A DNA stretch of 64,000 nucleotides, from the NCBI GenBank assembly GCA_040954595.2, contig CM082593.2, forward strand, positions 62,001-126,000, written 5' to 3'. Positions 43,470-63,972 of this stretch are shown piece by piece. The notes beneath the pieces are model-generated. The model was not told where the DNA came from and ran no database searches. It saw only the letters and a list, made by a program, of their open reading frames with translations. The translations under genes and the position numbers were made by a program. Each line of letters opens with the position of its first letter. The stretch's first letter is position 1. The DNA is from Balanoglossus misakiensis. Taxonomy: Eukaryota; Animalia; Hemichordata.

Positions 43470-63972
<20,503 letters not shown>

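What the first reader, a model, noticed from the sequence alone, without database searches (positions are those of the whole stretch)
62566..62577. 12-nt 'SRNR' microexon in an invertebrate BK channel at the vertebrate SRKR splice site
Seen: inside the 3.2-kb intron between exons 63399-63331 and 60133-60047 there is tag|TAGTCGGAATAG|gtatgt, preceded by a pyrimidine tract with TGC motifs (ctgcttgc). Inclusion keeps the frame and gives [15 protein letters not shown] tandem acceptor 3 nt inside would give a 9-nt form. Established: mammalian KCNMA1 has a 4-residue SRKR insert at this junction (ESR-SRKR-ILINPG) that alters gating in a phosphorylation-dependent way, and UGC motifs before the 3' splice site mark SRRM3/4 (eMIC)-regulated neural microexons. 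Inference: the SRKR switch may predate vertebrates. Gene predictors would miss an exon this small.
Basis: partly seen in the sequence, partly recalled or inferred. Interest (0 to 1): 0.8.

Follow-up and report, generated by a model that had tools for sequence, protein, structure and literature searches.

The report
Acorn-worm BK channel SRKR-like microexon
An acorn worm's BK potassium-channel gene carries a 12-base exon-like piece in the same intron where vertebrates have their gating-tuning 'SRKR' microexon; it would add a nearly identical peptide (SRNR) and is likely the same ancient exon, which would date this switch to the deuterostome ancestor, but no RNA or second genome has yet confirmed it.

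Summary
Observation confirmed. The gene is Slo1 of an enteropneust hemichordate. The 12-mer sits in the phase-2 intron holding the vertebrate 12-nt SRKR cassette. It is the only site there combining YAG, a 7/9 U1 donor, a 65-nt AG-free zone, a branch motif and UGCs. Of 61,555 shuffles, 194 gave a 3/4 match to SRKR, 6 with such a donor, 0 with YAG as well. The serine phosphorylated in mouse (S642) is kept.

Indirect support: one lamprey model has a 4-residue insert here; one brittle-star model has a 9-residue insert starting SR.

Against: no RNA run was available; 0 of 135 ambulacrarian models (15 species) show a 4-residue insert; the acceptor scores weakly; deep conservation of neural exons is rare.

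Corrections: the vertebrate SRKR exon is not srrm3/4-dependent in zebrafish or human tables, so eMIC control is unsupported. Seven protostome-type loci and Drosophila lack this intron, so the exon is probably no older than deuterostomes.

Real exon about 0.72; real and homologous about 0.6. My look-ups showed no earlier scan note of this exon.

The parts
63331..63399 (-). Upstream constitutive BK/Slo1 exon (69 nt, end of RCK1), ending ...KDS + AC (phase 2); carries the serine equivalent to mouse S642
   Evidence: matches hemichordate Slo1 proteins; S642 role from PMC3840924 passages
62580..62644 (-). 65-nt AG-free zone upstream of the candidate acceptor, with a CTAAT branch motif (A at -55), a set-back pyrimidine run and two TGC at -25 and -21
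   Evidence: function inferred
62566..62577 (-). Candidate 12-nt cassette microexon (adds S-R-N-R), TAG acceptor, GTATGT donor matching U1 at 7 of 9 positions
   Evidence: splicing not shown
62566..62574 (-). 9-nt form from the tandem (NAGNAG) acceptor (adds R-N-R)
   Evidence: use not shown
62484..62489 (-). TGCATG (RBFOX-type motif, recalled) 77 nt downstream of the candidate
   Evidence: background 0.5-0.7 per kb, so weak
62185..62315 (-). (CAT)30 plus (CAC)13 microsatellite about 250-380 nt downstream; a dense YCAY (Nova-type, recalled) run, possibly incidental
60047..60133 (-). Downstream constitutive exon (87 nt, IAINPG...EVK), starting with the A that completes the final Arg codon
43470..63972 (-). 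3' half of the BK/Slo1 (KCNMA1-type) gene, 16 exons mapped by homology

Best explanation
The 12-mer lies in the same phase-2 intron of the BK/Slo1 gene as the vertebrate SRKR cassette and is likely a real, alternatively spliced microexon, probably homologous to it and inherited from the deuterostome ancestor; when included it would lengthen a loop at the end of RCK1 by S-R-N-R and is predicted to expose the conserved upstream serine to kinases and damp channel opening, as SRKR does in mouse. Shown: position, phase, length, open frame, splice-signal layout, the conserved serine, and rarity under shuffling. Inferred: splicing, neural enrichment, homology and the phosphorylation effect (about 0.35 given a real exon). 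The regulator is open. The UGCs allow eMIC control, but the vertebrate exon is not eMIC-dependent in published tables, so RBFOX- or Nova-type control is at least as plausible.
For: (1) Phase and length: vertebrate skipped/included pairs change S to R...R, which fixes a 12-nt phase-2 cassette (37 SRKR proteins among 153 examined). Zebrafish and mouse tables list 12-nt cassettes; the zebrafish one has the same downstream exon layout as the window. (2) Against the mouse exon read from the primer in PMC3840924 (last base inferred), 7 of 12 bases match; of 5 differences, 3 are synonymous, 1 is the split-codon third base and 1 gives K to N. (3) Unique in the intron for YAG + U1 >=7/9 + AG-free zone >=50 nt (13 of 600 shuffles over nine lengths; 4 of 600 with branch motif and UGC too). 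One such site in 107 kb of real background, at what looks like an ordinary exon end. (4) In 61,555 shuffles: 3/4 identity 194; plus donor 6; plus YAG 0. (5) 1 of 15 lamprey models has a 4-residue insert CQMR at this junction; each changed residue can be one base from S, R, K. (6) The only ambulacrarian insert seen, Amphiura P0161 (9 residues), begins S-R in the same register, chance about 0.6%. (7) The serine two residues before the insert is present in all ambulacrarian Slo1 models printed.
Against: No read evidence could be obtained. 0 of 28 hemichordate models (25 P. flava of at least 34 isoforms, 1 Glandiceps, 2 Saccoglossus) and 0 of 107 echinoderm models (12 species) carry a 4-residue insert. 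The power is limited: the smallest clear cassettes in those sets are 6-7 residues, and 12 of 12 Callorhinchus models also lack SRKR. The acceptor is weak, and antisense control sites score as high on a plain matrix. Shuffles understate natural AG-poor stretches: 8 of 15 of this gene's own acceptors have AG-free zones >=50 nt. The last Arg comes free with an AG|GT donor. Only a median 3% of neural exons in non-vertebrate, non-insect outgroups are conserved in another species, and convergence is common (bioRxiv 10.64898/2026.09.05.749416 passages). The Amphiura insert is one model and may be a boundary extension.
Confidence: 0.6

Rival explanations
1. A chance pseudo-exon: ordinary intron sequence that looks like a microexon and is never spliced in at a useful level.
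For: No transcript or protein support in 135 ambulacrarian models. Weak acceptor, and 83 AG..GT candidates in this intron alone. Criteria were chosen after seeing the site. A 12-nt YAG..strong-donor site alone arises in 3.7% of shuffles.
Against: Splice layout and peptide match are largely independent and both rare: 6 of 61,555 for 3/4 identity with a strong donor, 0 with YAG. The intron was named in advance by vertebrate biology. The differences from mouse are mostly synonymous.
Confidence: 0.22
2. A real microexon that arose independently in hemichordates in a loop that tolerates insertions, converging on a basic, serine-containing peptide.
For: The intron is an insertion hotspot: lampreys have 4- and 14-residue inserts, Amphiura a 9-residue one. 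Convergent neural exons are common. Fodor and Aldrich 2009, on convergent BK splices, was seen only as a citation in PMC3342872. No amphioxus or tunicate link was retrieved.
Against: Same length, phase and register, and S-R in the first two codons (about 0.6% by composition), are not expected from independent origin unless selection is very specific.
Confidence: 0.12
3. A homologous but vestigial or atypically used element: the 9-nt tandem acceptor dominates (RNR, no serine), or the donor serves an upstream acceptor to make a stop-containing poison exon.
For: The 9-nt acceptor scores higher than the 12-nt one on the crude matrix (0.4 vs -3.4). Upstream AGs such as 62644 could pair with this donor and give stop-containing exons.
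Against: The branch motif, pyrimidine run and UGCs point at the TAGTAG acceptor and would lie inside a longer exon. The first AG after a branch point is usually favoured (recalled).
Confidence: 0.06

Closest known systems
Vertebrate KCNMA1/Slo1 site-1 'SRKR' exon (mouse, PMC3840924; events DreEX0040954, HsaEX0033052, MmuEX0025087, identified as SRKR by my inference from length and geometry)
   Same: Same gene, intron, phase 2, 12 nt cassette, 3 of 4 residues, conserved serine two residues upstream, nearer the upstream exon.
   Different: K is N. The exon ends in AG rather than CG. It has a tandem acceptor allowing a 9-nt form. The residue before it is T rather than R. Inclusion and function are untested.
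SRRM3/4 (eMIC)-dependent neural microexons (PMC8797185; bioRxiv 10.1101/2024.09.17.613571)
   Same: 3-27 nt, in frame, weak proximal 3' site, long AG-free zone, CUAAY branch motif, UGC near the acceptor, strong donor.
   Different: No upstream UCUC-rich enhancer is evident. The presumed vertebrate orthologue does not drop on srrm3/4 loss. Dependence is untested here.
Lamprey site-1 4-residue insert (P0143, Petromyzon model) and Amphiura 9-residue insert (P0161)
   Same: Inserts at the same codon-split junction; the lamprey one is 12 nt, the Amphiura one starts S-R.
   Different: Single predicted models whose DNA I could not see. The lamprey peptide is CQMR; the Amphiura insert is 27 nt.

Membership tests
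BK/Slo1 (KCNMA1) gene | Homology to Slo1 across RCK1, RCK2 and the calcium bowl | tested here: met
   (92% to P. flava Slo1 on one exon; QDDDDDPD bowl exon at 44813-44683)
Vertebrate SRKR exon orthologue | Located in the site-1 intron, phase 2 | tested here: met
Vertebrate SRKR exon orthologue | 12-nt cassette with AG/GT ends and open frame | tested here: met
   (genomic signals only)
Vertebrate SRKR exon orthologue | Peptide similarity beyond chance | tested here: met
   3/4 identity; 194 of 61,555 shuffles
Vertebrate SRKR exon orthologue | Spliced into mRNA | not testable with these tools
   no RNA holder was listed, so no reads could be laid
Vertebrate SRKR exon orthologue | Present in intervening lineages (other ambulacrarians, amphioxus, tunicates) | tested here: inconclusive
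   protein models only: 0 of 135 with a 4-residue insert, 1 with a 9-residue SR-starting insert; no amphioxus or tunicate model identified; no genomic introns available
Vertebrate SRKR exon orthologue | Phosphorylation-dependent right shift of gating through the upstream serine | not testable with these tools
   serine conserved; needs electrophysiology
eMIC/SRRM3/4-dependent microexon | UGC between branch point and AG, long AG-free zone, strong donor | tested here: met
   features
eMIC/SRRM3/4-dependent microexon | Inclusion depends on eMIC | not testable with these tools
   untested here; the vertebrate 12-nt exon shows no dependence (+14.1 zebrafish, 0 human). Not filed as a member.

The most novel reading that the evidence does not exclude
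The SRKR microexon, with its phosphorylation-dependent brake on BK gating, arose together with a deuterostome-specific intron and has been kept for over 500 million years from acorn worms to mammals (ancestral x-S-R-[K/N/M]-R). It came under eMIC-type control in ambulacrarians and left it in jawed vertebrates. The neighbouring site-2 intron also holds a hemichordate 12-nt exon where vertebrates have IYF, so paired microexon tuning of BK would be older than the vertebrate brain.
Probability: 0.3. Interest if true: 0.65.

Novelty: new member of a known kind. Interest (0 to 1): 0.47.

Why it matters
SRKR is one of few ion-channel microexons with a measured mechanism (PMC3840924). Microexons conserved beyond vertebrates are rare (median 3% in outgroup species). 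A hemichordate counterpart would give a dated, directly testable case of a splice-plus-phosphorylation switch older than the vertebrate nervous system. It would also show that public ambulacrarian BK models miss it. I found no report of such an exon in invertebrates in the held library (searches; listings read, most papers not opened). Torres-Mendez 2019 and Fodor and Aldrich 2009 were not readable, and bioRxiv supplements are closed, so VastDB-type tables for amphioxus or sea urchin could already list it.

Tried and rejected
No whole genome is held for the window. Sequencing runs: none was listed for 43400-49700; this is no evidence either way, and no reads could be laid. An exact 21-base search of metagenome contigs found 0. 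The metagenome protein scan returned 80 of 235 related stretches. Those covering the site were 16 transcript-like and 7 genomic contigs, none hemichordate-like and none with an intron or SR-type insert at the junction.

A splice-site matrix from the gene's own 16 sites did not single out the candidate. The 4-residue-longer annelid form (P0261 cluster) has its extra residues before the conserved serine, so it was rejected as a site-1 insert. Among 150 unnamed 50%-cluster representatives, 91 aligned over the site and showed variable loop lengths but no clear SRxR in an invertebrate. A recalled lead about an Aplysia PKA-site isoform could not be checked, and the presumed Aplysia PDB entries (species recalled) are only one residue longer here. 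eMIC control by analogy to vertebrates was rejected. Longer exons on the same donor were rejected as coding forms. Torres-Mendez 2019 is not held. No fold was run; solved structures four residues longer over this stretch exist.

Full report
What is there. The window's minus strand holds the 3' half of a BK/Slo1 gene; 16 exons were mapped by homology. The nearest named proteins are from acorn worms: P. flava 92%, Glandiceps 91% and Saccoglossus 86% on one exon. The window is therefore an enteropneust, and amino-acid differences suggest it is not the annotated P. flava itself. Of the AGs within 300 nt upstream of the donor, only the 12-nt and 9-nt choices keep an open frame.

Is it the vertebrate site? 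Vertebrate skipped and included forms read ES-S-ILINPG and ES-R-SRK-R-ILINPG (37 SRKR proteins among 153 examined). This implies a 12-nt phase-2 cassette, and the window's intron is phase 2 at the same codon. PMC12626424 Supplementary file 1 (rows seen) lists a 12-nt neural kcnma1a microexon. Its coordinates fit being followed by an 87-nt exon, a short intron and a 77-nt exon, as in the window, and then the 9-nt site-2 exon. I infer this is SRKR. The mouse primer in PMC3840924 (passages seen) gives 11 of its 12 bases: 7 of 12 match the window and the differences are mostly synonymous. In mouse the effect runs through S642 in the upstream exon, not the serine of the insert. The window keeps that serine.

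More than chance? By plain splice-site strength, no. A matrix from the gene's own 16 sites ranks the 9-nt form 7th of 83 in the intron and scores the 12-nt acceptor poorly, and antisense controls score as high. By layout, yes. It is the only site in the intron with YAG, a donor matching U1 (consensus recalled) at 7 of 9, a 65-nt AG-free zone, a CTAAT branch motif and nearby UGCs. Thirteen of 600 shuffles had any site meeting the first three criteria over nine lengths, and 4 of 600 met all; 107 kb of real background gave one hit of the first kind and none of the second (that scan kept only sites open in phase 2). By peptide, 194 of 61,555 shuffles gave a 12-nt site with 3 of 4 SRKR residues, 6 with a strong donor as well and none with YAG too. 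Caveats: thresholds were post hoc, the final Arg is coupled to the donor's AG, and shuffles understate AG-poor stretches (8 of 15 real acceptors here have zones of 50 nt or more).

Relatives. No annotated ambulacrarian model has a 4-residue insert: 0 of 28 hemichordate models (25 P. flava, 1 Glandiceps, 2 Saccoglossus) and 0 of 107 echinoderm models from 12 species (larger clusters list only 15 members). The negative has limited power. The smallest clear cassettes in those sets are 6-7 residues, and 12 of 12 Callorhinchus models lack SRKR although they capture the 3-residue IYF. The single ambulacrarian insert, in Amphiura (P0161), is 9 residues and starts S-R in register (about 0.6% by composition). 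One of 15 lamprey models has a 4-residue insert (CQMR) and 4 have a 14-residue one. So a 12-nt insert probably predates jawed vertebrates, and the loop also attracts unrelated inserts. No amphioxus or tunicate model was identified among the hits.

Age limit. Seven of seven genomic contigs from the metagenome scan that span the site have no intron there; four of them (L034, L037, L047, L053) keep both neighbouring introns. I call them protostome-type by sequence likeness only. Drosophila coordinates in PMC8797185 Table S2 imply one 159-nt exon across the site (my inference). The host intron is thus shared by vertebrates and this hemichordate but missing in the protostomes seen. The simplest reading is a deuterostome origin; loss in protostomes is not excluded, and cnidarian introns were not tested.

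Regulation. The layout resembles eMIC targets (PMC8797185 passages; bioRxiv 10.1101/2024.09.17.613571 passages and section 10). However, the vertebrate 12-nt exon is not srrm3/4-dependent: its lowest mutant-minus-control dPSI is +14.1 in zebrafish and the human value is 0, against -54.7 for the 9-nt exon. In mouse it is classed as a general alternative exon. One TGCATG lies 77 nt downstream and a long YCAY-rich microsatellite follows (motif meanings recalled; both weak). PMC5577181 (passage) says the BK gene has RBFOX-target exons without naming SRKR.

Mechanism and odds. Most likely a minor, probably neural cassette homologous to SRKR (0.6). It would move the conserved serine into an accessible loop next to basic residues, as proposed for mouse; that step is inferred (about 0.35 if the exon is real). 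Rivals: chance pseudo-exon 0.22, independent real exon 0.12, 9-nt or poison use 0.06. The prior for deep conservation is low (median 3% in outgroups, with convergence common; bioRxiv 10.64898/2026.09.05.749416 passages), and no reads could be obtained. That is why confidence is not higher despite the shuffle results.

Novelty. A probable new member of a known kind. I found no invertebrate SRKR-like exon in the held library (listings only for most). Torres-Mendez 2019 was not held, Fodor and Aldrich 2009 was seen only as a citation, and bioRxiv supplements are closed. Earlier scan notes on this genome also call it a probable acorn worm with other microexon candidates; they are unchecked and are not used as evidence.

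Noticed in passing
window 59273-59262 (-): A second 12-nt candidate (TAG acceptor, GTATGT donor, 58-nt AG-free zone, pyrimidine tract, no nearby UGC) in the intron where vertebrates have the IYF/STREX site 2. It is phase 1 and would add VTEQ with any of three downstream exons. It ranks 2nd of 471 candidates in BK introns by the crude matrix and is absent from the P. flava models seen.
   Followed up: partly
window 51200-51129 (-): A long pyrimidine tract ending in CAG directly followed by GTATGT: looks like a recursive (zero-length exon) splice site in a 2.2-kb intron.
   Followed up: no
window 47465-47451 and 60375-60373 (-): A 15-nt and a 3-nt AG..GTAAGT candidate with high matrix scores but short AG-free zones; may be chance.
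   Followed up: partly
window 48827-48470 (-): This exon has an internal possible donor after SSQG, matching P. flava isoforms with and without a long RCK2 insert. Linker exons 57123-57055, 55376-55332 and 51921-51844 are alternative in P. flava.
   Followed up: partly
P0233 (whale shark BK-like paralog): A second BK-like gene in sharks shows a longer junction (RYRY) at the same site than an unnamed relative, P0205; could be a model artefact or a paralogous insert.
   Followed up: no
window 6600-37700: Neighbouring genes recognised by eye from ORF translations (recalled motifs, not tested): CYP4-like (-, about 11990-6640), Sec24-like (-, about 23640-15360), CDK1-like (+, about 27540), ankyrin/DHHC-like (+, about 34990-37200).
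   Followed up: no
L027, L031, L034, L037, L047, L053, L074: Protostome-type BK genomic contigs lack the site-1 intron, so the intron itself may be a deuterostome marker.
   Followed up: partly
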